A program made the translations under genes and the position numbers. Below the pieces are notes generated by a model that saw only the letters and a list, made by a program, of their open reading frames with translations, did not search any database and was not told the origin of the DNA. 64,000 nt of DNA from Minisyncoccota bacterium (GTDB lineage Bacteria > Patescibacteriota > Minisyncoccia > Phycocordibacterales > UBA9973): positions 1,094 through 65,093 of the forward strand of contig JBBABB010000001.1 of assembly GCA_041657885.1 (NCBI GenBank). Reading direction: 5' to 3'. Positions 6,902 through 64,000 of this stretch are shown here, piece after piece; position 1 is the stretch's first letter, and each line of letters starts with the position of its first letter.

Positions 6902-6929
6902 TACTTACAACTGAATAGTTCGATCAAGA

Positions 6930-8418: not shown

Positions 8419-8730
8419 GCCTCGGGCATTTCCGCTAGGGTGTCCATGACTAAAGGACGAGTGCCGCCCAGCTGGTGCAATACTAAAATCTAAAGGCGAA
8501 AGCTATACACACTAAACACGGATATGAATAAAGTAGAGTGGGGATGGCGAGGGCAGACTGCTGGTAATCCAGCAGAGCCCGACCCGGGGAGAGGAAACTT
8601 CCTCTCCCCAAGAAGTTGCGGGCAATCTAGTGAACGGCTCATTTACTGGTATTTGAGCCGTTCGGATATTTTGCTTGCCCGCTCATAGGCATCTAGGCAC
8701 TCGTAGCCCTAGCGGAAATGCCCGAGGCGG
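8419..8730. repeat. Second MITE-like or structured element, closed by a perfect 24-bp inverted repeat
   Basis: ccgcctcgggcatttccgctaggg (8420-8443) is the exact reverse complement of 8706-8729. The interior holds hairpins such as gggagagga-aactt-tcctctccc. Confidence 0.5.
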
Positions 8731-8781
8731 ATGCCGAGGGTGCACCTCAAAACTTTAAATAACCACCAAAGTAGAAAAATG

Positions 8782-10119: not shown

Positions 10120-11034
10120 GTGATGGACAAAGAAAAAATTCAGAAAGAAATAGAAGAACTTGAGGCACAAACGGCGCAAGGGAATTTTTGGGATGATAAA
10201 ATTTCTGCACAAGCGACAATCAAACGGATTGCATTTTTGAAAGATGAAATTCTAGGAAATCAAAAATATGACAAAGGGAATTGCATACTTTCAATTCTTT
10301 CAGGCGCTGGGGGTGATGATGCCGAAGATTTTTCGGCGATGTTGCTTCGAATGTATACAAAATATTTTGAGAGAAAAGGTTGGTCTTGGGAGGTAATCCA
10401 TGAAAATAAAAATGACAACGATGGATATCGCAATGTTTCTGTTGAAGTTTCTTCTCCCCCTGCGAAGGGGGAGTGGCCGAAGGTCGAGGGGGTCTATGGC
10501 ACTTTAAAAAATGAATCAGGTGTACATCGATTAGTTCGAATATCTCCATTTAATGCGAATGCCAAAAGGCACACTTCTTTTTCTCTCGTTGAAGTGATTC
10601 CAGAATTTGCGAAAGATGATAGCGCCATAGAAATCCCCCCAAATGACCTTCGGATTGAGCTTTCAAAGTCAGGTGGCCCCGGTGGGCAAAATGTAAACAA
10701 ACGCGAGACCGCTGTCAGGGTAGTCCATTTGCCAACCAATCTGTCTGTTCATGTAACATCAGAGCGTTCTCAAGAACAAAACAAAGAAAAAGCCATTGAA
10801 ATGCTAAAAGGTAAACTTTTCAAGAAAAGAGAAGATGATAAAAAGAGAGAAAAAGACGGAATGTCCATCTCAAAGACGACAGATATAGAATGGGGAAGTC
10901 AAATTCGCTCTTATGTCCTTCATCCATATAAAATGGTCAAAGACCACCGCACGGGAGTTGAAATTAATAATGTTGACTCTGTTCTTTTGGATGGTCAGAT
11001 AGATGAATTTATTGAAACAGAACGCAATTTGTGA
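10120..11034 (+). CDS. prfB: Peptide chain release factor 2, with a short N-domain and no programmed frameshift
   Basis: SPF tripeptide, GGQ motif (GGPGGQNVNK) and GVHRLVRISPF. The N-terminal region is contiguous in a single frame. Confidence 0.85.
   Translation: MMDKEKIQKEIEELEAQTAQGNFWDDKISAQATIKRIAFLKDEILGNQKYDKGNCILSILSGAGGDDAEDFSAMLLRMYTKYFERKGWSWEVIHENKNDNDGYRNVSVEVSSPPAKGEWPKVEGVYGTLKNESGVHRLVRISPFNANAKRHTSFSLVEVIPEFAKDDSAIEIPPNDLRIELSKSGGPGGQNVNKRETAVRVVHLPTNLSVHVTSERSQEQNKEKAIEMLKGKLFKKREDDKKREKDGMSISKTTDIEWGSQIRSYVLHPYKMVKDHRTGVEINNVDSVLLDGQIDEFIETERNL
10450..10490 (+). repeat. GC-rich palindromic element (CTCCCCC-TGCGAA-GGGGGAG) inserted in-frame within prfB
   Basis: It encodes SSPPAKGEWPKVE between the conserved VEV and GVYGTLK..GVHRLVR segments. 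The hairpin core is 10454-10473. Confidence 0.6.
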
Positions 11035-38100: not shown

Positions 38101-38789
38101 AAAATGCAAAACAGACACTATATTTTGTTTTAAAAACCGCCATTCAACCCTTCGCACCATTTATGCCTTTTATTGCAGAAGATATTTGGCAGAAATTAAA
38201 ATTTAATTCTGATCCAGAGAGTGTCCACTTAACAAACTTTTTCTTAGATGTTGAAACTAAAAAAATTGATAATAAAATTATCGAAGAAATGCAAAAAGCG
38301 CGTGAGGTTGTGACGCTTGGATTACAAGCTCGGCAGAAAGCGGGGATTCCGGTGAGACAACCGTTAAAAGAATTACGAATTACGAATTACGAATTACGAA
38401 AAGAATACGAGGAGATAATAAAAGATGAATTAAATGTAAAAGAAATTAAAATAATTAAAGGCGAAGAAGAGAAAGTTGAATTGGATACAAATATTACAGA
38501 AGAATTAAAGAAAGAAGGGCAATATCGCGAGCTTGTTCGAGCCATACAAGATATTCGTAAGAAAAATGGATTAAATCCAAATGATATTGTAACTCTCCAG
38601 ATTTCTGCTTCAACAGAAGGACAAGAATTGATAAATAAATTTAAAAAAGAATTAATGAAGGCAGTTAGTGCAAAAGAAATACAAATTAAAGAAAATAATG
38701 GGGTACCTGCCCGCAATACTTCTGGTACAGCTGATGCAGGCGGGGAAATAAAAATTGATGAATTAATATTTATAATTAGTCTTATATAA
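35142..38789 (+). CDS. ileS: Isoleucyl-tRNA synthetase carrying an embedded histidine-phosphatase-superfamily domain
   Basis: Class I motifs HYGH and KMSKS, plus WTISRNRYW and DCWFESGS. A ~190-aa insert between these two blocks (~36760-37340) carries RHGESEGN and THAG motifs. Confidence 0.9.
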   Translation: MDKNNEKSPPASAQGYGEAKSALPASAERSGVAKREEAILQFWKENKIFEKSLEKEAPKGKYVFYDGPPFASGLPHYGHILGSTAKDVIGRYKTMCGFNVPRRWGWDCHGLPIENIVEKDLGISGKKAIEALGIDKFTEHARSKVLTYVSEWKKTIDRMGRWVDFNNSYKTMDNTFIESVWWALGEMNKKELLYEGVRVLAYCPRCETPIANSEIAMDNSYKDITDISVYVKFQLTEASHSQISSCFTLKGSDATKKLENVLTIYLLAWTTTPWTLPGNTAIAINKKLNYVLVKNKIETGEEILIVAKELFEGLKNKFNNPEIVKEVKGSELIGLSYEPLFSYYKNKDVAKNPNIWKIWHADFVTLDKGTGVAHQAPAFGEDDMDLAKKNNVPFIRHVEPNGDFSKEITDFPNVKVKPKEDHQSTDILIIKHLAHAGLLFAKEKIIHSYPYCYRCETPLLYYALPSWFVNIQKVKNDLVKKGEEMNWIPAHLKEGRFKNTMESAPDWTISRNRYWASPLPIWKNKEGRVMVVNSLEDLKIKTKKSGNKYFVMRHGESEGNLNGLVSSSYEEDDNLTENGKRQAEEASIGLKNKKIDLIFSSPIKRTKETAEIMCSALGLDKKNIIIDDRIREISIPDYEGKTWTEFRKDFPNTIENFYHIKENNESYNDVKKRVMNFLYEIEEKYKDKNILIVTHAGPIWLAISGAMGFDAKESLNIKNIDTSGKNAEYRELDFTFIPHNENYELDLHRPYIDSVTLVDEKGEEYKRIPEVVDCWFESGSMPFAQDHYPFENKNWQKENFPAGFVAEYIAQTRTWFYYTHTISTILFGHAPFENVVTTGTILAEDGSKMSKSKNNYPDPWLLFDKYGVDALRFYLMSSTLMKGEDVNFSEKLVQEVASKIVNRFDNVMAFYELYRSKEVESSKEKIVSKNILDQWIIARTSQFINEVKDSMEIYDMAQAAKPFDLFVEDLSTWYLRRSRERIKNGDENAKQTLYFVLKTAIQPFAPFMPFIAEDIWQKLKFNSDPESVHLTNFFLDVETKKIDNKIIEEMQKAREVVTLGLQARQKAGIPVRQPLKELRITNYELRKEYEEIIKDELNVKEIKIIKGEEEKVELDTNITEELKKEGQYRELVRAIQDIRKKNGLNPNDIVTLQISASTEGQELINKFKKELMKAVSAKEIQIKENNGVPARNTSGTADAGGEIKIDELIFIISLI
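38371..38398 (+). repeat. GAATTAC heptamer x4 in-frame inside ileS
   Basis: gaattacgaattacgaattacgaattac encodes ELRITNYEL. Confidence 0.6.
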
Positions 38790-40490: not shown

Positions 40491-40982
40491 ATGAACAATA
40501 AATATAGAAATACTTTTTCTGAAGAGCTAATTGCTTTTTTGTTTTCGTGTAAATCTCATAAAATGCGAAGAGCGATTCTATATGAATTTGCTAAAAAAAG
40601 ATTTGAGATGGAAAAGTCTGTTTATAATCAGAATATATATCGTCTAAAAAAGAATGGTTTTTTAATTCAGGACGAAGATGTTTTTTTTCTTTCTTTAAAG
40701 GGGGTTTCTTATTACACTAATCCGTATAGACATATTAAAGAAAAAATAGATAAGAAAAATAAAATAATTATTATTTTTGATATACCGGAAAATAAAAGAA
40801 AAGTTAGAGAATGGATAAGAAGCCAAATAAAATTTTGGGATTTTGAAATGATCCAGAAGAGTGTATGGGTGGGGTATGGGCCATTACCATCTGAATTTAT
40901 GAGTCGTTTAAGGATGTTGGGAGTATATGATGGAGTGAGGATTTTTAACGTACAAAGTAAAAATAGTACCGTAACGAAATAA
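40491..40982 (+). CDS. Small winged-HTH plus Cas2/VapD-like-pattern protein (paralog B)
   Basis: IIIIFDIPENKRKVREWIRSQIKFWDFEMIQKSVWVG matches paralog A (28862-29338). It is flanked by ~21-bp direct repeats (40460-40481 / 40985-41004). Confidence 0.35.
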   Translation: MNNKYRNTFSEELIAFLFSCKSHKMRRAILYEFAKKRFEMEKSVYNQNIYRLKKNGFLIQDEDVFFLSLKGVSYYTNPYRHIKEKIDKKNKIIIIFDIPENKRKVREWIRSQIKFWDFEMIQKSVWVGYGPLPSEFMSRLRMLGVYDGVRIFNVQSKNSTVTK

Positions 40983-50038: not shown

Positions 50039-51007
50039 ATGCCTAAATACATTGATATACATTCACACGTAAATTTCAAAGCATTTGATGAGGACAGGGA
50101 TGCGGTTATTCGTCATGCCCTCGACAATGATACTTGGGTCATAAATATCGGCACACAATTTGATACTTCAAAAAAGGCAGTTGAGATGACGAACGATTAT
50201 AAGGAAGGAATTTATGCAACAATTGGGCTACATCCGATTCACACTGATGTTTCGTATCATGATGAAAATGAATTGGGTGCTGAGGCTAGCGAATTTATCT
50301 CTCGTGGAGAAATTTTTGACAAAGAAAAATATAGAGAGCTCGCAAAACTTGGTAAGGTTGTCGCAATAGGGGAATGCGGACTTGATTATTATAGAATGGA
50401 ACTAGAATCTATTGAAAAACAAAAAGTTGCTTTTATTGCTCAGATTGAATTGGCTAATGAACTTAATCTTCCACTTATGCTCCATGTTAGAAATCCTTCA
50501 CCCCTCAGTCCCTTGGACAGCTCCTTACAGGAGCAGTACACCTTTCGCATTTTGATTACAAAAATGCTCAAGGTCTTGCACTTGGGTCCCTTTCCCAAGC
50601 TCACCCCTTCGCAGGGGAGCAAGAATGCTTATGCCGATGTTGCTGATTTATTAAAAAAATATTCAAAAAGAGAAATAAAAGGTGTGTCACATTTCTTTGC
50701 AGGAAATGTGGAAGATATGAAAAGATTTATTGAGATAGGTGTATATGTTTCTTTTGCTGGTCCAATAACTTATAAACCAAAACCAGAAATTTGTGATTAT
50801 ATAAGTGTTATAAAAGAAACCCCCGTGGATATGATATTGGCTGATACAGACAGCCCCTATGTCGCTCCAGTGCCTCACAGGGGAGAGAGAAATGAACCAA
50901 GCAATGTTTGTGATATAGTAGCTAAAATAGCTGAAATTAAAGAGTTATCGAAAGAAGAAGTTGCAACAGTAATTCTCTCTAATGCAAAAAAACTCTTTGA
51001 CTTATAG
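50039..51007 (+). CDS. tatD: TatD-family metal-dependent DNase with an in-frame insertion
   Basis: IDIHSHV N-terminus and GECGLDY. A ~46-aa GC-rich insert lies at ~50487-50625. Confidence 0.8.
   Translation: MPKYIDIHSHVNFKAFDEDRDAVIRHALDNDTWVINIGTQFDTSKKAVEMTNDYKEGIYATIGLHPIHTDVSYHDENELGAEASEFISRGEIFDKEKYRELAKLGKVVAIGECGLDYYRMELESIEKQKVAFIAQIELANELNLPLMLHVRNPSPLSPLDSSLQEQYTFRILITKMLKVLHLGPFPKLTPSQGSKNAYADVADLLKKYSKREIKGVSHFFAGNVEDMKRFIEIGVYVSFAGPITYKPKPEICDYISVIKETPVDMILADTDSPYVAPVPHRGERNEPSNVCDIVAKIAEIKELSKEEVATVILSNAKKLFDL
50487..50625 (+). repeat. GC-rich palindromic element cluster inserted in-frame within tatD
   Basis: cttgggtccctttcccaag and ccccttcgcagggg hairpins encode PSPLSPLDSS...LTPSQGSKN. 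Confidence 0.6.
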
Positions 51008-52129: not shown

Positions 52130-52147
52130 ACCCCTCCGCCTACGGCA

Positions 52148-52167
52148 CCTCCCCTTCGCAGGGGAGG
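52148..52167. repeat. GC-rich palindromic element (CCTCCCC-TTCGCA-GGGGAGG), intergenic between ssb and rpsR
   Basis: Same core as the elements in prfB, tatD and the infB-rbfA spacer. Confidence 0.6.
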
Positions 52168-52406: not shown

Positions 52407-52424
52407 AAGAATCACCACCCCCTG

Positions 52425-52484
52425 CCCCCTCCTCAATAAGGAGGGGGTTTTGGATTTCCCAGACAGTGCTTTAGGCGCTGTCTG
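52425..52484 (+). terminator. Tandem GC hairpins after rpsR (ccccctcc-tcaataa-ggaggggg then cagacag..ctgtctg)
   Basis: The first hairpin is followed by TTTTGG. Confidence 0.5.
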
Positions 52485-52565
52485 AACTTGTGTATAACTT
52501 CCTTGCGGGGGGGGTATTTGTGATACAATATGAGTATATTAATAATCATAATTTTTTAAATATAT

Positions 52566-54233
52566 ATGAAAAAAATATTATTAGGATTGTTTGTTTTGAG
52601 TTTTTTGGTGGTTGGTTATAATGCCTATGCTGAAAGTGCTGTTGATTGCCCCGCAGATCAAAATTACAGCTCTCTAACAGGAGAGCTTTGTGGTTGTTCA
52701 CATAATGAAGTTTATAGTTCAACAACAGGACAGACATGTCCAGTTATTGTTCCTTCTATTAAGGTCACATCTCCTAACAGTGGCTTTGAAGCGATAGAAT
52801 CAGGTCAAAAAGTAGAAATAAGATGGGAATCAAACGTTTCAATAAATGCTTTGGTAGACGTTTACGTTTCAGACAGGATTCATACAGGAGAAGTAGTAAG
52901 GACCAATAATAATGGTGCTCATGGTTTAATATATACTCTCGATAACAGTTTAACTCCGGGTTCAAATTATAGAGCTTATGTTTCTCTCGTTTCCGAAAAC
53001 CCAGTTAGTGATTCGTCAGATAATCCATTTATCATTAAACCCGCAAATTCTGGTTGTTTAAATGGCGAAGTTTTTAGTTCTACCACAGGAGCAATTTGTC
53101 CTACTACTCCTTATAAAATTACTACTACGACAGATTTAACTCCTCGTATTTCATATTGGCAAGGTAAGGTGAATCAACATGTAAGTGTAAGTGAGGGCAT
53201 GTGGCAAACAGATTCGGATGGAGTTTCGGGAGCTGAAATCAACAAGCTCACATATTGTAAAAAGTTTTATCCAAATACGACGAGTGTAGTTGAATACAAG
53301 AAGGAATATATAAATGCTTGGCATGATAGGGGTAATGTAAATGATTATTTAGGTCTGAACATGTCTTATCAATGCGTGGGAATAGATGCTGGTTGTTCAA
53401 ATGGCCAAGTTTATAGTTCAACAACAGGGCAAAGATGTCTTGTAAATACAAATCCAATAATTTCAGGAATTTCTGGTCCACAAACATTAGCCATAACTCA
53501 ATCTGGAACATGGAAGGTTACAGCTTCAAGTTCAAGTGGAGGAAATCTAACATATTCTGTTGTTTGGGGAGATGAAGCTGTTCAAACAAATTATTCCACT
53601 GCAACAAGGCAAATACCTCAGCAATCAGCAACATTTACTCACAGTTATTCACAAATAGGAACATATACACCAACATTTACTGTTACAAATAGTAATGGTG
53701 GAAGTGCAAAGACAAGTATCACAGTAAAAGTAAATAATTTAACAAATACTTGCCCTGTTGTATTGACAGATTGTATAGTTGGTTATTCTGCTGTACTTTC
53801 GGGTAAAGATTCCAATGGTTGTAATTCTTGGTCCTGCAAAAAAGATTCTGAATCAGATAATGGATGTCATTTAGGTAACATATATAGTGTTACGACTGGC
53901 AAAATGTGTCCTATCAAAGATGATGGGTGTCTTCTCGGTTATAACTATAGTCCAATAACAGGAAAAGCATGTGTTGAATATTTTATTTATCCATGTACCT
54001 CTTCATCAGAATCTAATTGTTTTAATCCAACTACTTCCATAACTAGAACCCTCAAGGTTGGTACGACAGGGGAGGATGTTAAAACATTACAGTCATTCCT
54101 TGGGATAAACGCAGATGGAGTATTCGGTCGCGGAACGCAAGCCAGTGTTATAAACTGGCAAACATCAAAGGGTCTCACTGCTGATGGTGCATTTGGAAGT
54201 ATGAGTCGTGCAAAAGCAGGATTTACTCAATAA
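52566..54233 (+). CDS. Secreted protein with about 6 cysteine-containing YSSTTGQxCP repeats, an Ig/PKD-like segment and a C-terminal peptidoglycan-binding domain
   Basis: Signal peptide, repeats of C..G.VYSSTTGQ.CP, and a PG_binding_1-like C-terminus (GEDVKTLQSFLG...DGVFG). Confidence 0.6.
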   Translation: MKKILLGLFVLSFLVVGYNAYAESAVDCPADQNYSSLTGELCGCSHNEVYSSTTGQTCPVIVPSIKVTSPNSGFEAIESGQKVEIRWESNVSINALVDVYVSDRIHTGEVVRTNNNGAHGLIYTLDNSLTPGSNYRAYVSLVSENPVSDSSDNPFIIKPANSGCLNGEVFSSTTGAICPTTPYKITTTTDLTPRISYWQGKVNQHVSVSEGMWQTDSDGVSGAEINKLTYCKKFYPNTTSVVEYKKEYINAWHDRGNVNDYLGLNMSYQCVGIDAGCSNGQVYSSTTGQRCLVNTNPIISGISGPQTLAITQSGTWKVTASSSSGGNLTYSVVWGDEAVQTNYSTATRQIPQQSATFTHSYSQIGTYTPTFTVTNSNGGSAKTSITVKVNNLTNTCPVVLTDCIVGYSAVLSGKDSNGCNSWSCKKDSESDNGCHLGNIYSVTTGKMCPIKDDGCLLGYNYSPITGKACVEYFIYPCTSSSESNCFNPTTSITRTLKVGTTGEDVKTLQSFLGINADGVFGRGTQASVINWQTSKGLTADGAFGSMSRAKAGFTQ

Positions 54234-54234
54234 T

Positions 54235-54272
54235 TAAGAATTAAAAATTAATAATTAAAAATTAAATGCAAA
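54235..54272. repeat. Degenerate AATTAAN heptamer array (about 5 copies)
   Basis: aattaag aattaaa aattaat aattaaa aattaaa. Confidence 0.6.
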
Positions 54273-54274
54273 AT

Positions 54275-54299
54275 GCCCCCGAACCTACGGTTCGGGGGC
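54275..54299 (+). terminator. Rho-independent terminator
   Basis: gcccccgaacc tac ggttcgggggc followed by a T-rich run. Confidence 0.7.
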
Positions 54300-54348
54300 A
54301 TTTTAATTTGCAATAAATATACAGGGGTGTATTTTTTGCAAATTATTT

Positions 54349-55098
54349 TTATATTAGTTGTAAGGATTTAAGAAATTCTTTTAATTCTTTTTCTTTGATT
54401 TCTTGAAACTCTCCAAGGGGTATTTTATCAAGCACTATGTTCATTATACGTATTCGTTTTAAGTTGATGACATTATGGTGTAATGCCTCACACATGCGTC
54501 TTATTTGGCGTTTTTTACCCTCTGTGAGGACTATATGGAAGGTATCTTTGGACTTTGGCTTGCGGAATACTTCGCACTTCCTACTGATAAATCCGTCAAA
54601 GTGAACACCGTTTGACATTAATTCTACAAATTTATCTGAAAAGTTTGGCTCTACTTTTACAACATATTCTTTTTCATGAACATATTTGGGAGAAAGAAGT
54701 CGGTCTGTTACTCGGCCATCGTTTGTCATTATCATTAGCCCATGCGAATCTTTATCAAGTCGGCCAACAGGGAAGACAGAATTCCCCCTCCCCTTACTAA
54801 GGGGAGGGTTGGGGAGGGGTATTGGAAATTTTGTGACTGATAAAATATCTTTGGAATTGAGCTCGGGATTAGTTGCAATTCCAATCGGTTTATTGTAAGC
54901 ATAATAAACAAAATCTTTGTGGATACCTTTTGATTTTACAACTACTTGATCTCCCTCATTTACTTTATCTCCTAAAACTGCCTTTCTGCCATTTATAGAA
55001 ACAAGACCTTTTTTGATAAGGTCGTCTCCACCCACGCGAGTAGAGTAATTATTCATTGCGAGATATTTATTTATTCGGATCGGGTAAAATATTTTCAT
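54349..55098 (-). CDS. rluB: Pseudouridine synthase, RsuA/RluB family (S4 domain plus catalytic domain) with an in-frame insert
   Basis: S4 domain (RINKYLA..GRKAV) and catalytic PVGRLDKDSHGLMIMTNDG. Confidence 0.8.
   Translation of the reverse strand: MKIFYPIRINKYLAMNNYSTRVGGDDLIKKGLVSINGRKAVLGDKVNEGDQVVVKSKGIHKDFVYYAYNKPIGIATNPELNSKDILSVTKFPIPLPNPPLSKGRGNSVFPVGRLDKDSHGLMIMTNDGRVTDRLLSPKYVHEKEYVVKVEPNFSDKFVELMSNGVHFDGFISRKCEVFRKPKSKDTFHIVLTEGKKRQIRRMCEALHHNVINLKRIRIMNIVLDKIPLGEFQEIKEKELKEFLKSLQLI
54785..54821. repeat. GC-rich element (CCCCCTCCCC-TTACTAA-GGGGAGGG-TT-GGGGAGGGG) in-frame within rluB
   Basis: It encodes PLPNPPLSKGRGNS immediately before the conserved FPVGRLD. A near-identical element lies at 63284-63319. 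Confidence 0.6.
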
Positions 55099-56263
55099 TA
55101 GGATATTCGTGACTATGTTTTAAGTGTGGAATATAATATAGGCCAGACAGTAAAATGATACTTAAAATAATAAACAAAAATTTGAATGGTAAGAAAATAA
55201 ATATCAAAGTACTTATGAGTGGAGCAATAATGTATGCAACAGGCATCATATCTCGGAATACACTAAGTAAATATGCCTCTTCCTCTTTTATGTGTGTAAA
55301 GAAATAAATTTCTGAAGTTGTTTCTATTATACTTGCTCCAACTCTTGTTATAAATAATACTGCGCCCCATAGAATAACATTTTTAGTAGTTATCCCAGCT
55401 ATTAAGAGTGTAGATACACTTATAATAATAAATCCAATATATAGTAACGTTCTTTTACTTACATGATATTTGTCTATTAATATTCCAATAGGAAAACCAA
55501 AAATGACAAACGGAGTAAGCATTATCGTAAATATAATACCAATTTGACCCCACTCCAATCCTATATGTTGATATAAGTATATTGGAGTATAAACAACCAT
55601 CCAAGCATAGAAGAATTGCAAAATAAAATTAATTATTGCGATTGCAAGCATGTGGTGATTTGTTTTTAGATATCTATATGTTTCTAAAAATGGAGTTTTT
55701 TTGTAGGTTCTATCTTTGAAAGTTTTTACTGAAAACATTAACCCGATTGTCATTATAATTACTGTGGCAAAAGCTAAAATATATATTGTCTTATATCCTC
55801 CTTCTTTTGTTATTAGAAATGCGGCTAAAAGAGGAGAGGCCATCCACGCAAGATTTATTATTGTTAGGTAAAGTCCACGATTTTTCCCGACGGTCTTTTT
55901 ATCTCCAAAATGCTGAATAAATATATCAATACAGAAAAGTATTTGGGTGTTTGTAGAGACAAATAAAACAAAAGAAGCTCCAACTATATAGGGATTTGCC
56001 GATGTTATCATTCCCGCCAATGACAACATATTTACTAAAAGAAGTATCAATGTTAATCTTTTATTACCAAAATGCTTTAATATATTTGAACTTTTTGAGA
56101 GAAGCAGTAGCGTTACGAGAGAAGCTATTGTAAACAATATACCAACATATTTTTCTGAAATAATATTAGTTAAGAAAGTAGAATTTACATATGCAGAAAG
56201 TGCTATGTGTAAAGAGAAAAGAAATGATAAAACATACATTCTTTTGATTTTTGTTGTTTTCAT
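55067..56263 (-). CDS. MFS transporter
   Basis: About 12 TM helices with an MFS loop pattern. Confidence 0.7.
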   Translation of the reverse strand: MKTTKIKRMYVLSFLFSLHIALSAYVNSTFLTNIISEKYVGILFTIASLVTLLLLSKSSNILKHFGNKRLTLILLLVNMLSLAGMITSANPYIVGASFVLFVSTNTQILFCIDIFIQHFGDKKTVGKNRGLYLTIINLAWMASPLLAAFLITKEGGYKTIYILAFATVIIMTIGLMFSVKTFKDRTYKKTPFLETYRYLKTNHHMLAIAIINFILQFFYAWMVVYTPIYLYQHIGLEWGQIGIIFTIMLTPFVIFGFPIGILIDKYHVSKRTLLYIGFIIISVSTLLIAGITTKNVILWGAVLFITRVGASIIETTSEIYFFTHIKEEEAYLLSVFRDMMPVAYIIAPLISTLIFIFLPFKFLFIILSIILLSGLYYIPHLKHSHEYPNENILPDPNK

Positions 56264-56317
56264 TTTATTTTTTAGTAGTCCGACTACTAAAATTTTAATT
56301 TGTGTTATAATATTTTT

Positions 56318-58303
56318 TTATATGCTTAATAATACTGGTATAACAATTGGTCTCTTGGCTGTTTTTTGGAAAAGAAATTTTGATATATTGTCTCCCAGTG
56401 CAGTTTTTATAACGTCAAAATTGATAGGGTTCATCCCATGAGTTTCATCTTCAACAGTTTTCTTGATGATAAGCCTGACTTGATGTAACAACTCTTGATT
56501 TTCTTTTAAATAAATAAATCCACGAGATATTATATCGGGTGATTTCCTTAACTTTCCTGTGGCAGAATCAATAGTTGCAATTAAAACAAACATTCCATCT
56601 TGGGCAAGCATTACTCTATCTCTGATAACCACATCTTGTTCATCTCCAATTGAGAATCCATCTACCATCATTGGGCCTGAAGGTGCTTTTTCTTTTCGAA
56701 GAATCATTTTATTTCCATTATCAACAATTTCAATAATTGAACCATTATCAGGCACGATTATATTTTCTTCAGACATTCCGAGCAACATTGCAATTTCTTT
56801 GTGTTTAACTAGCATTGAATGCCATCCGTGGATAGGAATAAAAAATTTAGGATGTGTTTTTCTATGTAACCACTTAATATCTTCTTGATTACCATGTCCA
56901 GTCGCATGAATATATTCTTCACTTGTTCGGTAACTTATAAGACGAACACCGTGACGAGTTAAATTATCTTTTAAATGTTGGACGGCAATTTCATTTCCTG
57001 GAACAATGGAAGCCGAAAGAATTATTGTATCACCAGCTTTAATTTGGAATTTTTTATGAGTTTTATTTGCTGCTCTGGAAAGAGCAGCAAATTCTTCGCC
57101 TTGAGCTCCAGTCATCATAATAAGAATTTTATTTGGAGGATATTTATCAGCATCTTCAACAGGAATAATAGTACCTTTTTTCGGTTTAAAAATTCCAGCT
57201 TGTTCACAGACCTCCATATTTGTTTTTAGAGACCTTCCATCGAGCACTACTTTTTTATTAAGAGATTCAGCGATCTCAACGATTTTCATCAGACGAGTAA
57301 TAGACGAAGCAAAAGCTGAAATAATAACACGACCAGTTACTTGTTTTATAAGTTTATCTAAACCTTCATGGACTTTAATTTCTGGAAGAGCAAATCCTTC
57401 GTTCTCAATGTTGGTTGAGTCAGTCATAAGCAAAAGTACTTTTTCTTTATCAAAAAAGGCATACTCTTTTTCCTCTTCCTCTGTTGCTTTTCCATCTATT
57501 TGGTCAAGTTTAAAATCTCCCGGTGTAACGATTGACCCATAAGGAGTTTCAATTACTATGCCCATAGAATCAGGGAAAGTATGTGTTACTCCAAAAAAAC
57601 GAATACGAATATTTCCAGCATAGACAACAGAATCTTTTTCAACAATATGAGTATTAAGAGGAAGTAAATGTGAAAATTCCTCTTGGCGTTTTTTTATTAA
57701 TAAAATTGAAAGGTTGCGAGAATAAAGTGGGGGATTACCAATACGACTCATTACAAGAGGAACACCTCCAATATGGTCTAGATGTCCATGGGTTATAAAC
57801 ATACCTCGTATTTTATCTTTACGTTCTTCTAGGTATGTTGTGTTTGGTATAATGTAATCAATTCCAGGAGTATCTTCTGTCTTGAATTGCATTCCAGCAT
57901 CGATAACGATAATATCGTCACCAATTTCAATAGCTGTCATATTTTTCCCGATTTCTTCTGCTCCTCCAAGGGGGATTATTCTAATAACTCCTTTTTCTGG
58001 AGACGGTATTGGATTTGTTTTGTTTTTTTGTAAAGTTATTTTGTTTTGAATTCCTTCCATTTCTTTTCTCGAACGGCTGTTGCCTCTTTTAATATTGCTG
58101 TATTGATAACTTCCACGACTTATTCTCTTATTAATTACTTGTGTTTTATCACTAGTGTAATTTTGTTTAATTGTTGAACCGATTATATTATTGGTAGGTT
58201 GCTGTGTCTTATGCATAACACGGATGTTGCCTTGTTTGCGATAACTGAATCTTTGACCGCTTTTTAATTTAGGGTTTTGAATTTGTTTAGGTATTTCATT
58301 CAT
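56318..58303 (-). CDS. rnj: Ribonuclease J (with a basic N-terminal extension)
   Basis: Metallo-beta-lactamase HGHLDHIG, beta-CASP and the RNase J C-domain. Confidence 0.85.
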   Translation of the reverse strand: MNEIPKQIQNPKLKSGQRFSYRKQGNIRVMHKTQQPTNNIIGSTIKQNYTSDKTQVINKRISRGSYQYSNIKRGNSRSRKEMEGIQNKITLQKNKTNPIPSPEKGVIRIIPLGGAEEIGKNMTAIEIGDDIIVIDAGMQFKTEDTPGIDYIIPNTTYLEERKDKIRGMFITHGHLDHIGGVPLVMSRIGNPPLYSRNLSILLIKKRQEEFSHLLPLNTHIVEKDSVVYAGNIRIRFFGVTHTFPDSMGIVIETPYGSIVTPGDFKLDQIDGKATEEEEKEYAFFDKEKVLLLMTDSTNIENEGFALPEIKVHEGLDKLIKQVTGRVIISAFASSITRLMKIVEIAESLNKKVVLDGRSLKTNMEVCEQAGIFKPKKGTIIPVEDADKYPPNKILIMMTGAQGEEFAALSRAANKTHKKFQIKAGDTIILSASIVPGNEIAVQHLKDNLTRHGVRLISYRTSEEYIHATGHGNQEDIKWLHRKTHPKFFIPIHGWHSMLVKHKEIAMLLGMSEENIIVPDNGSIIEIVDNGNKMILRKEKAPSGPMMVDGFSIGDEQDVVIRDRVMLAQDGMFVLIATIDSATGKLRKSPDIISRGFIYLKENQELLHQVRLIIKKTVEDETHGMNPINFDVIKTALGDNISKFLFQKTAKRPIVIPVLLSI

Positions 58304-61055: not shown

Positions 61056-61141
61056 GCTCCCCTGCGAAGGGGAGCTGTCGCTTGCGACTGAGGGGTGATA
61101 CACCCCCTCGTCCTCCGGGCACTCCCCCTTCGCAGGGGGAG
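61056..61141. repeat. Three tandem GC-rich palindromic hairpins in the infB-rbfA spacer
   Basis: gctcccc-tgcgaa-ggggagc; gagggg-tgatacac-cccctc; ctccccc-ttcgca-gggggag. Confidence 0.7.
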
Positions 61142-61150: not shown

Positions 61151-62680
61151 TTACTTAATTACTATTTCAAAAACTTCTAAAACATCACCTGCTGAAATGT
61201 CTATTTTGGTTTCTACTTGAATTCCACAATCAGAGCCCTCTAAAACTTCTCTTGATTTTAATTTGTTCACTTGTAATTCTACAATTTTTCCAGTTCCTAT
61301 TTCAAAATCACGACGAATTATACGGATTTTACTGCCGAGAGCTATTCTTCCAGTTGTAACTTTTCCCCCGACGATATGCTTATCCTTTGTTGACCCAAAT
61401 GTTTTTAGAACTTTGAGAGACCCTATTACTTCTATAGTTTCAAGACGAGGACGACGAATTTCTACGAGTTCTTTTAGCCAATCAGTAAGTTTATAAATAA
61501 TATTAAATATTTCCACATTTACCTTCAGGGTCTCATTCAAATCCCCAGCTCCACTGTCCATCTTTGTATTAAATCCAACAATTATACTTTCTTTATTCAC
61601 ATTTCCCATTTTGAGGTCTGATTCATTTATCGCTCCAACTCCCTTACTAATTATTTTGAATGAAATTTCTTCGGTATTTAATTTTGCTATTTCTTTTTCT
61701 ATGGCTTCGATTGTTCCAGAAACATCTGTTTTTATTATTATCGGAATTATTTTACCTGCCTTGCCGGTAGGCAGGCTCCCGACGTTTACAGTCGAGACCC
61801 CGACTCCTTTGGACTTCGGGGCAGTAACGCTCAATTTTACATAATTTTCAGCTTCTTTTTTTGTGTTAAATGACTCAAATACATTACCCACTTCTGGCAT
61901 TGATTCAAATCCAACAAGTTTAATAGGGGACGAGAAGGTGGCTTCTTTTATGGGTTTACCCAAGAAGTTCTCCATTATACGGGTGTTAACTATGGCTTCT
62001 CCACAGGCTACAAACATTCCAGCACGAAGTGTCCCGTCTTTTATCACACATGTTGCAGAAACTCCTCGTTTTGGTTCACGTTTTGCTTCTATTATTACGC
62101 CCGTAGCATTTAGTTCTCTGTTTCCGGTGAGTCCTTGTAGGTCAGCAACAAGAATAATCATCTCTAAAAGCTCGGATACACCTGTTCCTGCTTTAGCTGA
62201 AATAAGAACAAAAGGAATATCGCCACCCATTCCTTCTAAATATATTTCTTTTTCAGATAAATCCATTTTTGTTTTTTCAATGTTGGCATTTGGTTTATCT
62301 ATTTTATTTATAGCTACAATATATGGAATTTTACTTTCCATTATTGTTTTGTAGGCTTCAAGTGTTTGAGCCTTAACTCCATCTTCAGCTGATACGACTA
62401 GTATTGCAATGTCTGCGGCTTGTGCGCCACGAGTTCGCATTTTTGAAAATGCTTCGTGTCCGGGTGTATCTAAAAATGTGATTAGTCGATTTTCACCTTT
62501 ATCATCCTTAGCCACAACTTCATACGCACTAATATGCTGAGTTATTCCACCCGCTTCACCTTCGACGATATTTGATTTCCTAATATAGTCAAGAAGAGTT
62601 GATTTTCCATGGTCAACGTGCCCCATAACAACTACTACGGGAGGGCGAACCTTTTCAATTGTTTTTGTTTCTGTTGACAT
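61151..62680 (-). CDS. infB: Translation initiation factor IF-2 (short form)
   Basis: G-domain [25 protein letters not shown], and C-terminal beta-barrel domains. Confidence 0.9.
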
Positions 62681-62790: not shown

Positions 62791-63237
62791 TTATTTAATG
62801 GTTTTTTCTAGAACCTCTTTTTCTTCACTAGACAATTCAAATTCTGATTTACCATTTACTATTGGCTTTGCAAAGATGCTCATACGGTCCCGTGCATAAA
62901 GGCTCGACATCACGACTCCATTTTTTTCATCATTCATAAAGGCGATTGCAAAACTTTGGTTTCCACCGGCATCTATAAATGGATTAAAACGTACCATCTC
63001 AACATTTCTAATGGATTTATCCAATCTACTATCTATGGTGACTAAATGCTTATCTATCTTTACTTGAGTCTCTTCTAATTGATTTATCTTTTTACCAACA
63101 ATAACGATCATTTCTTCTAAATTGCGGGCCTTTGTTCCAGCAAAGATTTTATTCAATCTGAGCTCAATTATTAAAATCCATAATAAGATGATAACAACAG
63201 CCCCGGAAATTATATAAAATAAGATAATAGTATTCAT
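62791..63237 (-). CDS. Hypothetical membrane-anchored coiled-coil protein
   Basis: N-terminal TM, then a coiled-coil region. Confidence 0.3.
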   Translation of the reverse strand: MNTIILFYIISGAVVIILLWILIIELRLNKIFAGTKARNLEEMIVIVGKKINQLEETQVKIDKHLVTIDSRLDKSIRNVEMVRFNPFIDAGGNQSFAIAFMNDEKNGVVMSSLYARDRMSIFAKPIVNGKSEFELSSEEKEVLEKTIK

Positions 63238-63283: not shown

Positions 63284-63319
63284 TCCCTCCCTCTGCCAAG
63301 GGGAGGGTTGGGGAGGGGT
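63284..63319. repeat. GC-rich element (CTCCCTCCCTC-TGCCAA-GGGGAGGG-TT-GGGGAGGGG), intergenic copy
   Basis: Near-identical 3' half to the element at 54802-54821. Confidence 0.6.
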
Positions 63320-63342
63320 GAAAATATGGTATAGTAATAAGC

Positions 63343-64000
63343 ATGTTTAGAAATAAAAATATTTATCTTGATTATGCAAGTGCTACGCCGATAGATAAAA
63401 GTGTGGCACGGAAAATGGCTCTTTATGAGTGTAATTTTTTTACTAATTCAAGTGCGATACACCAAGAAGGGGTTAAAGTAAGAAATGTTATAGAGGAATC
63501 AAGGAATAAAATTGCGAAGCTTATAAATGCTCATAATGATGAGATTATTTTTACAGGGAGTGGAACAGAAAGCATTGCCCTCGCTTTGCTCGGGCTAATT
63601 AAGAATTATGAATTAAGAATTAAGAATGAAAATTCCGAATTCGAATATAAAAAGCCACATATAATTACTACAAAAATAGAACATCCTGCAGTACTTGAAA
63701 ATTGTAAAATGCTCGAAGAGAGCGGGGAAGCTGAAGTCACTTATATTTCTGTTGATAAATCTGGAATTGTAAATCTCGAAGAATTAAAAGATTCTTTGAA
63801 AGAAAATACGGTTTTAGTTTCGGTAATGTATGCGAACAATGAAATTGGGACGGTCCAACCGATACAGGAGATTGCAAAAATAATTCGGCATTTTAAGAAG
63901 AATTACCTTACCCCAGCCCTCTCCAAAGGAGAGGGAGCTCCTTCCCCTTTGGGGAAGGCGGGGGATGGGGTTTTCCCTGTTTTCCACACAGATGCATGTC
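63343..64000 (+). CDS. Cysteine desulfurase (IscS/NifS-like), 5' part, with two in-frame low-complexity inserts
   Basis: IYLDYASATP, FTGSGTESI and ..HTDA motifs. Inserted segments are IKNYELRIKNENSEFEYKK and LTPALSKGEGAPSPLGKAGDG. Confidence 0.75.
   Translation, partial: MFRNKNIYLDYASATPIDKSVARKMALYECNFFTNSSAIHQEGVKVRNVIEESRNKIAKLINAHNDEIIFTGSGTESIALALLGLIKNYELRIKNENSEFEYKKPHIITTKIEHPAVLENCKMLEESGEAEVTYISVDKSGIVNLEELKDSLKENTVLVSVMYANNEIGTVQPIQEIAKIIRHFKKNYLTPALSKGEGAPSPLGKAGDGVFPVFHTDAC

What the first reader, a model, noticed from the sequence alone, without database searches (positions are those of the whole stretch)
54785..54821. Palindromic element encoding PLPNPPLSKGRGNS in-frame in rluB; a twin element lies intergenically at 63284-63319
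On the coding (minus) strand the element reads ccctccccttagtaaggggaggggg. It inserts 14-16 residues directly before the universally conserved PVGRLD catalytic motif. The 3' half GGGGAGGGTTGGGGAGGGG is reproduced exactly at 63301-63319 in an intergenic spacer, showing the element is an independent DNA unit. The iscS-like gene at 63917-63958 carries a related insertion encoding PALSKGEGAPSPLGKAGDG. In-frame copies consistently encode an LSKG(R/E)G peptide.
Basis: seen in the sequence. Interest (0 to 1): 0.65.

Follow-up and report, generated by a model that had tools for sequence, protein, structure and literature searches.

The report
Triplex-forming DNA repeat inside a gene
A 36-base repeat that can fold into a three-stranded DNA structure, of a kind already known from E. 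coli and cyanobacteria, sits in-frame inside an essential RNA-modifying enzyme gene of an ultra-small (CPR) bacterium and is read as a 13-residue extra loop.

Summary
Window 54786-54821 (+) is a repeat, and its 21-mer AAGGGGAGGGTTGGGGAGGGG recurs exactly at 63298-63318 (0 expected by chance).

It is more than a palindrome. The G-rich "tail" is the mirror image of the purine arm. The unit CCCTCCCCTT-act-AAGGGGAGGG-ttg-GGGAGGGGTA is therefore a perfect 10-triad class II intrastrand triplex motif. This kind is known as BoxC/PIT/TM elements (Holder et al. 2015, PMC4666352).

The host gene is RluF-like, not RluB. The insert is 13 codons. It is absent from 103 of the 121 orthologues compared and from E. 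coli RluF, and present with variation in seven other orthologues.

The insert is conserved at nucleotide level beyond codon needs. It keeps both Watson-Crick and Hoogsteen complementarity, including one C-G*G to T-A*A triple change.

The window holds seven such motifs (none in shuffles). Three lie in-frame in two further genes: one in a release factor and two in a cysteine desulfurase. The exact 21-mer occurs in more than 120 loci across many phyla.

No transposase is associated, and how the element spreads is unknown. The shared "LSKG" peptide is a by-product of base composition.

Verdict: a new member of a known kind. The new aspects are the CPR host and the in-frame copies in essential genes.

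The parts
54786..54795 (+). Pyrimidine (Y) domain CCCTCCCCTT of the triplex motif
   Evidence: It is the reverse complement of 54799-54808: a perfect 10-bp stem.
54796..54798 (+). Loop 1 (ACT)
   Evidence: The apex is free to vary. Among cross-phylum copies there are 22 different 3-nt loops, or self-complementary 9-13-nt inner stems.
54799..54808 (+). Purine (R) domain AAGGGGAGGG
   Evidence: It pairs with the Y domain by Watson-Crick pairing and with the H domain by reverse-Hoogsteen rules.
54809..54811 (+). Loop 2 (TTG)
   Evidence: A 2-4-nt spacer sits between the R domain and its mirror copy in family members.
54812..54821 (+). Reverse-Hoogsteen (H) domain GGGAGGGGTA, the mirror image of the R domain
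   Evidence: 10/10 allowed triads (G*G-C, A*A-T, T*A-T). Mirror-not-direct covariation holds across 19 arm types.
54781..54819 (-). The 13 extra codons (PLPNPPLSKGRGN) in the RluF-like gene
   Evidence: Alignment A1. Empty sites in more than 40 orthologous loci. Codon-level comparison.
54349..55098 (-). RluF-type 23S rRNA pseudouridine synthase gene (S4 + PseudoU_synth_2 domains); the catalytic Asp is in VGRLD at residue 115
63285..63320 (+). Intergenic twin: CCCTCCCTCT-gcc-AAGGGGAGGG-ttg-GGGAGGGGTG, with an imperfect Y domain
   Evidence: Exact 21-mer shared. It lies between divergent genes. Its Y arm + loop are identical to the RluF insert of another genome, L122.
63906..63935 (-). Class II triplex motif (8 triads, 1 mismatch); left half of the in-frame cysteine desulfurase insert
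   Evidence: Insert relative to orthologues.
63940..63970 (+). Class II triplex motif (8 perfect triads); right half of the desulfurase insert, head-to-head with 63906-63935
   Evidence: The pair folds as one long hairpin of -44.6 kcal/mol, z -3.8.
52413..52447 (-). Class II triplex motif (10 triads, 1 mismatch) just after rpsR (S18). On the + strand its hairpin is followed by TTTT and looks terminator-like.
10454..10493 (+). Subfamily B motif (CTCCCCCT-gcga-AGGGGGAG-[12-nt mini-hairpin]-GAGGGGGT), in-frame in the peptide chain release factor gene
61056..61141 (.). Two inverted subfamily B motifs filling the infB-rbfA spacer. The spacer is 102 nt here and 5-6 nt in syntenic relatives.
52130..52167 (-). 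Subfamily B motif in the ssb-rpsR spacer. The spacer is 77 nt here and 21 nt in relative L204.

Best explanation
What it is. The unit at 54786-54821 is a G/C-rich class II intrastrand triplex motif. This is a short dispersed repeat of the kind described as BoxC, then PIT, then TM/TMECO elements.

Structure. On the + strand it has three domains:
- a pyrimidine arm, CCCTCCCCTT;
- a purine arm, AAGGGGAGGG;
- a third domain, GGGAGGGGTA, which is the mirror image of the purine arm.

The domains are separated by two 3-nt loops. When that strand is single-stranded, during replication, repair or transcription, it can fold twice. The first fold is a hairpin. The third domain then lies in the hairpin's major groove, giving 10 C-G*G / T-A*A / T-A*T triads. 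The complementary strand, which is the rluF mRNA sense, has the matching pyrimidine-motif (class IV) arrangement.

How it came to be in the gene. One copy became inserted in the part of an RluF-type pseudouridine synthase gene that encodes a variable loop 8 residues upstream of the catalytic Asp. It adds 39 nt with no stop codon in that frame, so the reading frame survives. The element is most likely simply translated as a 13-residue Pro/Gly-rich loop.

Wider pattern. The same happened in the release factor and cysteine desulfurase genes. Other copies sit between genes.

Shown here:
- the three-domain architecture;
- repetition within the window and across genomes;
- presence/absence at orthologous sites;
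- nucleotide-level conservation and three-way covariation;
- the lack of an associated transposase.

Inferred, not shown:
- triplex folding in vivo;
- translation and tolerance of the loop;
- the way copies arise. My best guess is host replication/repair events (template switching, slippage or recombination) at forks stalled by the structure, rather than a dedicated transposase.
For: Architecture.
- An ITxF-like scan (stems 8-12, loops 1-6, at most 1 mismatch) finds 54786-54821 as a perfect 10-triad class II motif, plus 3 more in the window.
- Three further copies appear if loop 2 may be a 10-12-nt mini-hairpin.
- None is found in 10 shuffles.

Mirror rule.
- I compared 66 distinct arm/flank combinations with 19 non-self-mirror arm cores, excluding the searched sequence.
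- The tail matches the mirror of the arm better than a direct copy in 42 cases, against 5 the other way.
- There are 44 perfect mirrors and 17 perfect direct copies.
- No permutation of tails among arms, out of 2000, reaches the observed score.

Known family.
- Holder et al. 2015 (PMC4666352) describe the same Y-loop-R-loop-R' design: CCCTCNCCC N3-6 GGGNGAGGG N3 GGGNGAGGG.
- They report a stable triplex in vitro by CD and NMR, variable loops, inverted pairs, no link to transposons, phages or plasmids, and local deletions.

Insertion.
- 103 of the 121 orthologues compared have the 2-residue empty site, as does E. coli RluF. The window and seven other orthologues carry the insert.
- Insert lengths are 39, 39, 36, 39 and 39 nt, all stop-free.

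Nucleotide-level constraint.
- Identity is 80-96% in the insert against 69-85% in the rest of the gene.
- Third codon positions are 73-100% identical against 46-73% (binomial P 0.007-0.03 per pair).
- Orthologous inserts keep 8-10/10 Watson-Crick and 8-10/10 Hoogsteen matches, with one C-G*G to T-A*A triple change that alters the peptide (P to L, G to E).

Dispersal.
- The core 35-37 nt, including the loop, is identical to copies in a Nomurabacteria release factor gene and in cyanobacteria. An intergenic copy in L147 is 40/41 identical.
- The exact 21-mer occurs in more than 120 loci of many phyla. In 130 of 140 occurrences a complementary Y arm lies upstream.
- There are presence/absence differences against syntenic relatives.

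No mobilising gene.
- No transposase appears among about 57 window ORFs.
- No recurrent neighbouring protein appears at the 120 loci.
Against: - Triplex folding was not and cannot be tested here.
- For the E. coli family, in vivo DMS footprinting did not show protection, and the duplex wins when the complementary strand is present (PMC4666352).
- G-rich low-complexity sequences are nearly self-mirror. For this very copy, mirror and direct-repeat readings are both possible at 7-8 nt, and the distinction rests on other family members.
- Copies used for the covariation test are not phylogenetically independent.
- Within the five orthologous inserts, covariation is a single event: hairpin pairs give 56/500 shuffles as good.
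- The strict TMECO pattern is not matched, and E. coli copies are always intergenic.
- Whether the insert is really translated is inferred only from frame and stop-codon statistics.
- The unsupported NJ tree places insert-bearing orthologues in at least two groups. The history (one gain with several exact losses, recombination, or repeated gain) is unresolved.
Confidence: 0.75

Rival explanations
1. It is a plain REP/REPIN- or RPE-like palindromic selfish element. Only the hairpin matters, the G-rich tail is incidental, and copies are made by a tyrosine/HUH transposase (RAYT or IS200-type) acting in trans on single-stranded hairpins.
For: - The unit is a hairpin-centred short dispersed repeat with a variable apex and conserved stem.
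- Inverted pairs resemble REPINs.
- In Stenotrophomonas the copies sit next to GTAG-type REPs (GCCGAGCATGGCTCGGCACTAC).
- In-frame tolerance in genes is as for Rickettsia palindromic elements (PMC10969869).
Against: - No GTAG/CGTC tag is present (survey PMC3733652, holds no such sequence).
- No transposase of any kind appears among about 57 ORFs of the window.
- No recurrent neighbouring protein appears in 120 loci.
- The tail follows the mirror rule, which a hairpin-only model does not predict.
- The E. coli relatives were found not to be linked to mobile elements.
Confidence: 0.12
2. It is a G-quadruplex element. The four G-tracts GGGG-A-GGG-TT-GGGG-A-GGGG on the + strand form a G4 that regulates replication or transcription, and the C-rich arm only modulates it.
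For: - The tract pattern fits the canonical G4 motif.
- A near-identical oligonucleotide, GGGGAGGGGTTGGGGAGGGG, is listed among the variants of a yeast G-quadruplex sequence tested in PMC9794070.
Against: - Family members with arms such as GGGGAGA/AGAGGGG or GGGGGGA/AGGGGGG have only two usable G-tracts, yet keep the mirror arrangement.
- The complementary C-rich arm is present in 130/140 copies and would compete with a G4.
- For TMECO, NMR showed a triplex, not a G4.
Confidence: 0.05
3. The 13 residues are a lineage-specific functional loop of RluF kept by selection on the protein, and the DNA symmetry is secondary.
For: - The insert is shared by the window and seven other orthologues, and lies next to the catalytic motif.
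- It has been stably in-frame over 72-86% protein divergence.
Against: - The same 35-37 nt occur in intergenic DNA and in unrelated genes, on either strand and in other frames.
- Third codon positions are the most conserved.
- Non-conservative changes (P to L, G to E) accompany triad-preserving changes.
- The AlphaFold2 model gives pLDDT < 50 for residues 95-110.
- One lineage lost 33 nt of it cleanly (L162/P0016).
Confidence: 0.04
4. It is an intragenic attenuator/terminator or mRNA-stability hairpin acting at the RNA level.
For: - The consensus scan flags a weak terminator-like site on the minus strand at 54805-54784.
- The copy after rpsR (52424-52448 + TTTT) looks like a real terminator.
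- The RNA hairpin has a free energy of about -21 kcal/mol.
Against: - There is no U-tract after the rluF copy. The gene's own strong terminator is at 54305-54269.
- PIT elements showed no promoter or terminator activity in E. coli (cited in PMC4666352).
- Copies occur in both orientations relative to transcription.
Confidence: 0.03

Closest known systems
G/C-rich class II intrastrand triplex motifs: BoxC (Bachellier et al., 1990s), PIT elements (Hoyne & Maher 2000/2002), TM/TMECO (Holder et al. 2015, NAR 43:10126, PMC4666352)
   Same: - Same design on one strand: a 9-10-nt C-rich arm, a short variable loop, a G-rich arm, a 3-nt loop, and a G-rich reverse-Hoogsteen domain with A or T opposite A.
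- About 36-37 nt long.
- Many dispersed copies, with stems conserved and loops variable.
- Occasional inverted pairs.
- No link to transposases, phages or plasmids.
- Copies gained, lost or partly deleted between relatives.
   Different: - The stem sequence differs (GGGGAGGG type against GGGNGAGGG), so the strict TMECO pattern is not matched.
- The host is a CPR/Paceibacterota genome of 34% G+C, whereas TMECO was reported in Proteobacteria.
- This copy and three others lie in-frame inside protein-coding genes, whereas the 23 E. coli MG1655 copies are all intergenic.
- A second local subfamily has a 10-12-nt mini-hairpin as loop 2, outside the ITxF loop limit of 6.
Rickettsia palindromic elements (RPEs; Ogata et al. 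2000, 2002, as reviewed in PMC10969869)
   Same: Both are selfish-looking palindromic repeats in an A+T-rich reduced genome. They are inserted in-frame into unrelated housekeeping genes and apparently tolerated as extra peptide segments. Other copies are intergenic.
   Different: RPEs are about 100-150 bp, restricted to Rickettsia, and unrelated in sequence. They have no purine/pyrimidine mirror design and encode family-specific conserved peptides. Here the unit is 36-41 nt and the peptide depends on frame and strand.
REP/REPIN elements with RAYT transposases (PMC3116915; PMC3733652)
   Same: Both are 20-40-bp imperfect palindromes in high copy number, often as inverted doublets, with hairpin-forming single strands.
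   Different: Here there is no GTAG/CGTC tag, no RAYT in the window, a conserved third (mirror) domain, and copies that are not confined to extragenic space.
G+C-rich clusters and 'byp' elements in A+T-rich yeast mitochondrial genes (from my own knowledge; not checked in the library)
   Same: Both are short G+C-rich palindromic inserts that invade coding sequences of an A+T-rich genome.
   Different: Byp elements are skipped by the ribosome and need not be in-frame. Here all five orthologous inserts are multiples of 3 and stop-free, which argues for ordinary translation.

Membership tests
Class II intrastrand triplex motif (ITxF definition, PMC4666352) | Three consecutive domains on one strand, in the order 5' pyrimidine-rich, purine-rich, reverse-Hoogsteen | tested here: met
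   CCCTCCCCTT / AAGGGGAGGG / GGGAGGGGTA at 54786-54821 (+).
Class II intrastrand triplex motif (ITxF definition, PMC4666352) | Stem 6-15 nt with at most one mismatch; loops 1-6 nt | tested here: met
   Stem 10, loops 3 and 3, 0 mismatches. Subfamily B copies fail the loop-2 limit, with loops of 10-12 nt.
Class II intrastrand triplex motif (ITxF definition, PMC4666352) | Only C-G*G, T-A*A and T-A*T triads | tested here: met
   10/10 allowed triads in the window copy and 8-10/10 in four orthologous inserts.
Class II intrastrand triplex motif (ITxF definition, PMC4666352) | Over-represented relative to scrambled sequence | tested here: met
   4 (or 7 with long loop 2) in 64 kb against 0 in each of 10 shuffles.
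Class II intrastrand triplex motif (ITxF definition, PMC4666352) | The single strand actually folds into a triplex (CD, NMR, melting) | not testable with these tools
   Shown only for E. coli TMECO oligonucleotides.
TMECO / BoxC / PIT (E. coli type) | Pattern CCCTCNCCC N3-6 GGGNGAGGG N3 GGGNGAGGG | tested here: not met
   0 matches in the window. The arms here are of the GGGGAGGG type.
TMECO / BoxC / PIT (E. coli type) | Located intergenically | tested here: not met
   This copy, 10454-10493 and 63906-63970 lie inside intact ORFs. Other copies are intergenic.
REP / REPIN | Conserved GTAG or CGTC tetranucleotide at one end of the palindrome | tested here: not met
   Flanks are GAATTCC... and ...GGGGTATTGG. 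No such tag appears in cross-phylum copies of the core.
REP / REPIN | Cognate RAYT transposase gene flanked by the repeats | tested here: inconclusive
   None among about 57 ORFs of the 64-kb window, and none recurrent at 120 loci. The rest of the source genome could not be read.
Rickettsia palindromic elements | Sequence family of about 100-150 bp, specific to Rickettsia, encoding a conserved peptide | tested here: not met
   The unit is 36-41 nt, the host is a CPR bacterium, and the peptide varies with frame and strand.
MITE | Terminal inverted repeats plus target-site duplication; derived from an IS | tested here: inconclusive
   No clear duplication at filled/empty junctions, and no IS in the window. 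The nearest empty sites are too diverged for base-exact junctions.
Intrinsic terminator | G+C-rich hairpin directly followed by a U-tract on the transcribed strand | tested here: not met
   In rluF the hairpin is followed by GGAAUUCUGUC, which is only a weak consensus hit. The rpsR copy does have TTTT.

The most novel reading that the evidence does not exclude
Natural variation shows three-way covariation: pyrimidine arm, purine arm and mirror domain change together. A copy has been kept inside an essential gene with its third codon positions conserved over deep divergence. This would mean the triple-helical fold itself is under selection in vivo, which experiments on the E. coli elements could not show. 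It would also mean these about 36-nt units form a structure-driven, transposase-independent repeat class. That class would spread or be maintained across very distant phyla (CPR, cyanobacteria, Xanthomonadales, Betaproteobacteria, Bacteroidota), even into coding sequence.
Probability: 0.25. Interest if true: 0.7.

Novelty: new member of a known kind. Interest (0 to 1): 0.42.

Why it matters
Intrastrand triplex motifs (BoxC/PIT/TM) are abundant in bacteria, but their function is unknown and there is no in vivo evidence of folding. They were described as intergenic.

This window shows three things:
1. The same design occurs in a Candidate Phyla Radiation genome.
2. Copies survive in-frame inside essential genes (pseudouridine synthase, release factor, cysteine desulfurase), in the manner of Rickettsia palindromic elements.
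3. Coding copies give a natural experiment. Codon third positions and amino-acid-changing but triad-preserving substitutions separate selection on the DNA from selection on the protein.

If the three-way covariation holds up with proper phylogenetic controls, it would be the first evolutionary evidence that the triplex fold matters in cells.

There are two practical points. These inserts inflate protein length variation in CPR orthologue alignments. They are also likely sources of spurious Pro/Gly-rich ORFs in annotation.

Tried and rejected
- Rfam. Gathering thresholds on the window and on 12 loci from other phyla, and E-value mode on 54700-54900, gave no family for the element. Only chance hits at or below 20 bits appeared.
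- Literature searches for the sequence itself. These returned only human, yeast or aptamer papers. A CPR + palindrome search found nothing relevant. Elhai et al. 2008 on cyanobacterial small dispersed repeats is not held, so overlap with their families could not be checked.
- Search for a mobilising gene. Pfam on about 57 window ORFs found no transposase, RAYT or homing endonuclease. All-against-all clustering of 1296 ORFs from the 120 cross-phylum loci gave only generic families.
- Phage vector idea. Only 3 of 2.9 million viral contigs hold the 21-mer, all G+C-rich proteobacterial types.
- Hairpin covariation within the five orthologous inserts. This is weak, with one pair changed on both sides and 56/500 shuffles as good.
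- RNA folding z-scores of single copies. These are uninformative because shuffled C-run/G-run sequences also pair.
- AlphaFold2 model. It is mediocre (pLDDT 67) and shows only that the insert is low-confidence. I did not pursue fold searches.
- NJ tree of 120 orthologues. It has no support values and was used only as a hint.
- Source genome. Its 362-kb contig could not be fetched; only a 3-kb independent contig was obtained. A true genome-wide census was therefore not possible.
- First working ideas dropped. Tail as a direct duplicate for an alternative hairpin was rejected by mirror > direct. Tail as a target-site duplication was not supported by the filled/empty comparisons. SD/anti-SD mimicry had no supporting spacing.
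Full report
**1. Observation.**

The window is A+T-rich (33.8% G+C). From its protein matches it comes from a Candidatus Paceibacterota (CPR/Patescibacteria) genome.

At 54784-54821 the + strand reads CCCCCTCCCCTTACTAAGGGGAGGGTTGGGGAGGGGTA. A perfect 10-bp stem with a 3-nt loop lies at 54786-54808.

The 21-mer AAGGGGAGGGTTGGGGAGGGG recurs exactly at 63298-63318. There are no matches in 100 dinucleotide-preserving shuffles.

The second copy lies between divergently transcribed genes. These are a DUF4446 gene at 62791-63237 (-) and a cysteine desulfurase gene starting at 63343 (+).

An independent metagenome contig (L208) is 99.6% identical over window 54126-57102 and carries the same element. 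The insert is therefore not an assembly artefact.

**2. The host gene and the insert.**

ORF 54349-55098 (-) has S4 and PseudoU_synth_2 domains. It is RluF-like rather than RluB:
- NCBIfam scores RluF at 183.6 bits and RluB at 81.5 bits.
- The best solved structure is E. coli RluF 3DH3, E=3e-43.

I compared the window protein with its 120 closest database relatives, 121 sequences in all. Of these, 103 have the short site F-P-[VT]-[RK]-V-F-P-V-G-R-L-D. The window and seven others (P0002, P0003, P0009, P0017, P0019, P0023 and the identical P0001) carry 12-13 extra residues at exactly this place. More than 40 related loci show the empty site at DNA level. E. coli RluF has only FVNHSKRVFPIGRLD here.

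The insert is 39 nt (about 54781-54819) and ends 3 residues before FPVGRLD. The five orthologous inserts whose DNA I could read are 39, 39, 36, 39 and 39 nt, and all are stop-free. This is what selection on a translated sequence predicts and what splicing or ribosomal bypass would not require.

An AlphaFold2 model gives pLDDT < 50 for residues 95-110. That is compatible with a floppy surface loop, but the model is mediocre overall.

One lineage (L162/P0016, FP-RENS-VFP) equals the L122 type minus 33 nt, between short GAG repeats. It retains the GGAGAATTC end, so it is a partial deletion derivative.

**3. The element is a dispersed repeat, in this genome and far beyond.**

Perfect pyrimidine-arm/purine-arm hairpins number 9 in the 64-kb window and 9 more in 489 kb of related Paceibacterota loci. 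Shuffles give 0-1.

Two subfamilies are present in the window.

Subfamily A has the form CCCTCCCCTT-nnn-AAGGGGAGGG-TT-GGGGAGGGGT. Its copies are:
- the rluF copy;
- the intergenic twin;
- a head-to-head pair inside the cysteine desulfurase gene (63906-63970);
- a copy after rpsR (52413-52447).

Subfamily B has the form CTCCCCCT-GCGA-AGGGGGAG-[TGSCCGRAGGNC]-GAGGGGGT. Its copies are:
- one in-frame in the release factor gene (10454-10493);
- an inverted pair filling the infB-rbfA spacer (61056-61141);
- one in the ssb-rpsR spacer (52130-52167).

Syntenic relatives L204 and L201 lack several of these:
- The infB-rbfA spacer is 5-6 nt there against 102 nt here.
- The ssb-rpsR spacer is 21 nt in L204 against 77 nt here.
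- TatD is 36 residues longer here.

The cysteine desulfurase insert (PALSKGEGAPSPLGKAGDG) is absent from most orthologues. It lies in a length-variable loop just before FHTDA.

A Nomurabacteria genome (L077) has a subfamily A copy at the same release factor site where this window has a subfamily B copy.

These include Stenotrophomonas and other Xanthomonadales, Nostoc, Fischerella and other cyanobacteria, Rhodocyclaceae, Bacteroidales, Chloroflexia, Alphaproteobacteria, Vampirovibrio and Patescibacteria.

The search pattern contained only the purine arm and the tail. Even so, 130 of 140 occurrences have the complementary pyrimidine arm (at least 8/10) just upstream. The apex is free: 22 different 3-nt loops, or 9-13-nt inner stems of more than 25 different self-complementary sequences.

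The core 35-37 nt, including the ACT loop, is identical between the rluF copy, the L077 release factor copy and several cyanobacterial copies. An intergenic copy in L147 matches 40/41, including the AATTCC end.

**4. What the "tail" is.**

I first read the tail as a duplicate of the purine arm, either a G4 motif or an alternative pairing partner. Family members with other arm sequences show instead that it is the mirror image of the arm. Examples:

| Purine arm | Spacer | Tail |
|---|---|---|
| GGGGAGGA | TAA | AGGAGGGG |
| GGGGAGAG | C | GAGAGGGG |
| GGAGGGGG | TTA | GGGGGAGG |
| GGGGGGA | TTA | AGGGGGG |

Where the arm has A, the tail has A or T.

I tested 66 distinct arm/flank combinations with 19 non-self-mirror arm cores, excluding all copies that contain the searched sequence:
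- The mirror fits better than a direct copy in 42 cases, against 5 the other way.
- There are 44 perfect mirrors and 17 perfect direct copies.
- None of 2000 permutations of tails among arms reaches the observed mirror score.

There are caveats. The copies are related to each other, and G-rich runs are nearly self-mirror.

A pyrimidine arm, its complementary purine arm and a mirror copy of the purine arm on one strand is the textbook layout of an intramolecular purine-motif triple helix, with G*G-C, A*A-T and T*A-T triads.

**5. This is a known kind.**

A literature search on that idea led to Holder et al. [quoted passage not shown] The E. coli BoxC repeat was re-described as PIT elements by Hoyne and Maher, and then as TMECO. 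Its pattern is CCCTCNCCC N3-6 GGGNGAGGG N3 GGGNGAGGG.

According to that paper:
- There are 3610 copies in 262 proteobacterial genomes, and many other G/C-rich motifs in cyanobacteria.
- The single strand forms a very stable class II triplex in vitro (CD, NMR, Tm 70-82 °C).
- Loops are less conserved than stems.
- Inverted pairs occur.
- The 23 E. coli MG1655 copies are all intergenic.
- No link to transposons, phages or plasmids was found.
- No promoter or terminator activity was found.
- In vivo DMS footprinting did not show folding.
- Loci with the motif are more often rearranged or carry small deletions.

I implemented their definition: stems 8-12, loops 1-6, at most 1 mismatch, allowed triads only. 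Results:
- 54786-54821 is a perfect 10-triad class II motif, CCCTCCCCTT-act-AAGGGGAGGG-ttg-GGGAGGGGTA.
- Three more motifs in the window qualify.
- The three subfamily B copies also qualify if loop 2 may be a 10-12-nt mini-hairpin.
- Ten shuffles give none.

The strict TMECO pattern is not matched. This is therefore a different sequence type of the same design.

On the mRNA-sense strand the order (pyrimidine third strand, pyrimidine arm, purine arm) corresponds to the class IV pyrimidine motif. According to the same paper, this is the only type able to form in RNA.

**6. Evidence that the DNA, not the peptide, is what is conserved.**

| Comparison with the window copy | Insert | Rest of gene |
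|---|---|---|
| Nucleotide identity (four orthologues) | 80-96% | 69-85% |
| Third codon position identity | 73-100% | 46-73% |

The third-position excess gives a binomial P of 0.007-0.03 per pair.

All five inserts keep 8-10/10 Watson-Crick and 8-10/10 Hoogsteen matches. Between the window type (CCCTCCCCTT/AAGGGGAGGG/GGGAGGGG) and the L204/L201 type (CCCTCTCCTT/AAGGAGAGGG/GGGAGAGG), one triad has changed on all three strands, from C-G*G to T-A*A. This turns P into L and G into E in the protein.

This is a single event, and the hairpin-only statistic is weak. It should be taken as suggestive. Alternatives to selection on structure are homogenisation by recombination with other copies, or re-insertion.

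The Y arm + loop of the intergenic twin (CCCTCCCTCTGCC) is identical to that of the rluF insert of another genome, L122. This hints that variants travel as units.

The NJ tree has no support values. It puts insert-bearing orthologues in at least two groups, and the window protein is closer to several empty-site proteins (81-82%) than to most insert-bearing ones (72-78%). The history is unresolved.

**7. The "LSKG" peptide.**

The hairpin reads the same on both strands. A C/T arm gives P/L/S, an A-rich loop gives K/T/S, and a G/A arm gives G/R/E.

In rluF, L-S-K-G is CTT AGT AAG GGG. In the desulfurase it is CTC TCC AAA GGA, which is a different register of the arm. Other genomes read the same DNA as PPLTKGRVGEG or LPLTRGGRRVG. 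The resemblance is compositional and is not a conserved peptide.

**8. Mechanism and its limits.**

Shown:
- the architecture;
- repetition;
- insertion and partial deletion;
- nucleotide-level conservation;
- absence of any transposase among about 57 window ORFs;
- absence of a recurrent neighbouring protein at 120 loci;
- rarity in viral contigs.

Inferred:
- The + strand folds transiently into a triplex when single-stranded.
- The element is translated into a tolerated loop.
- Copies arise and vanish through host replication or repair at structure-stalled forks, or by recombination.

The RNA hairpin has a free energy of about -21 kcal/mol. The double desulfurase insert folds at -44.6 kcal/mol. 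The rluF copy is not followed by a U-tract, and the gene's real terminator is at 54305-54269.

**9. Verdict.**

The element is a member of the described intrastrand triplex motif (BoxC/PIT/TM) class. It is not a new kind of palindrome.

Within the literature I could search, three aspects appear new:
- the CPR host;
- the in-frame copies in essential genes, which is RPE-like behaviour;
- the use of coding copies and cross-family mirror covariation as evidence that the three-domain design is maintained.

Interest is moderate.

Noticed in passing
window 8416-8731 (within 8345-8765): Perfect 25-bp inverted repeats (TCCGCCTCGGGCATTTCCGCTAGGG) at 8416-8440 and 8707-8731 enclose about 265 nt of G+C-rich, strongly structured sequence in an ORF-free gap. 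The fold is -190 kcal/mol with z -7.8. There is no Rfam match and no copy in any fetched locus. It is a MITE-like element or an unknown structured RNA.
   Followed up: partly
window 35142-38789 (+): The isoleucyl-tRNA synthetase-like ORF (1215 aa) has a complete histidine phosphatase domain (His_Phos_1, residues 550-723) inserted between the two halves of its tRNA-synt_1 catalytic domain.
   Followed up: no
window about 50496-50623 (+), in TatD gene 50039-51007: TatD carries a 36-residue in-frame insert (PSPLSPLDSS...KLTPSQGSK) that is absent from the syntenic relative L201. The insert ends in a CACCCCTTCGCAGGGGAG hairpin of the same G+C-rich family but has an A+T-rich interior.
   Followed up: partly
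RluF orthologues, after KCKVW (window residues about 175-180; empty in the window); e.g. L122, L145, L203: This is a second insertion hotspot in the same protein. At least 12 of 26 aligned orthologues carry 4-14 extra residues (PASPSQGG, AASAKAS, PARHVSQGDAGGP...). They are encoded by a different G+C-rich hairpin family (GGCCTGCC...GGCGGGC). P0079 and P0004 have yet other inserts at or next to the first site.
   Followed up: partly
window 52497-52546 (+): A G8 run (GCGGGGGGGGT, 52505-52515) sits between a TTGCGG -35-like and a TACAAT -10-like hexamer. It lies upstream of the PKD/peptidoglycan-binding surface protein gene (52566-54233). The relative L201 has G7 at the same place. This looks like a homopolymer in a promoter spacer, with possible phase variation.
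   Followed up: no
window 61755-61775 (-), in infB: IF-2 contains a CCTGCCT-TGCCGGT-AGGCAGG hairpin encoding ...SLPTGKAG.... It lies in a short region that is 3-7 residues longer than in relative L201. This is another small G+C-rich in-frame insert, of a third hairpin type.
   Followed up: no
window 63308-63343 (+): The tail of the intergenic twin supplies TTGGGG 16 nt upstream of TGGTATAGT, an extended -10-like sequence. That sequence ends 7 nt before the ATG of the cysteine desulfurase gene. The element may contribute a -35-like TTG to a promoter giving a leaderless or near-leaderless mRNA. This was not picked up by the consensus scan.
   Followed up: no
window 1334-6441 (+) and 6918-7024 (+): A defence-like island holds an AAA_21/AbiEii-type ATPase, two adjacent N6_N4 DNA methylases and a 418-aa ORF with no Pfam match. 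It is followed by a SAM riboswitch (56 bits).
   Followed up: no
window 28862-29338 (-) and 40491-40982 (+): Two small paralogous ORFs have a PaaX_M / Cas2-like domain. They lie far from any CRISPR array in the window.
   Followed up: no
loci L001, L018, L046, L054, L064, L072 etc. (Stenotrophomonas): In Stenotrophomonas the same triplex-type unit has a longer apex (for example CCCTCCCTTTCGCGCAGCGAAGGGGAGGG) with many covarying inner stems. It often lies directly next to the GTAG-type REP GCCGAGCATGGCTCGGCACTAC, sometimes in tandem arrays with 120-240-nt spacing (L044).
   Followed up: no
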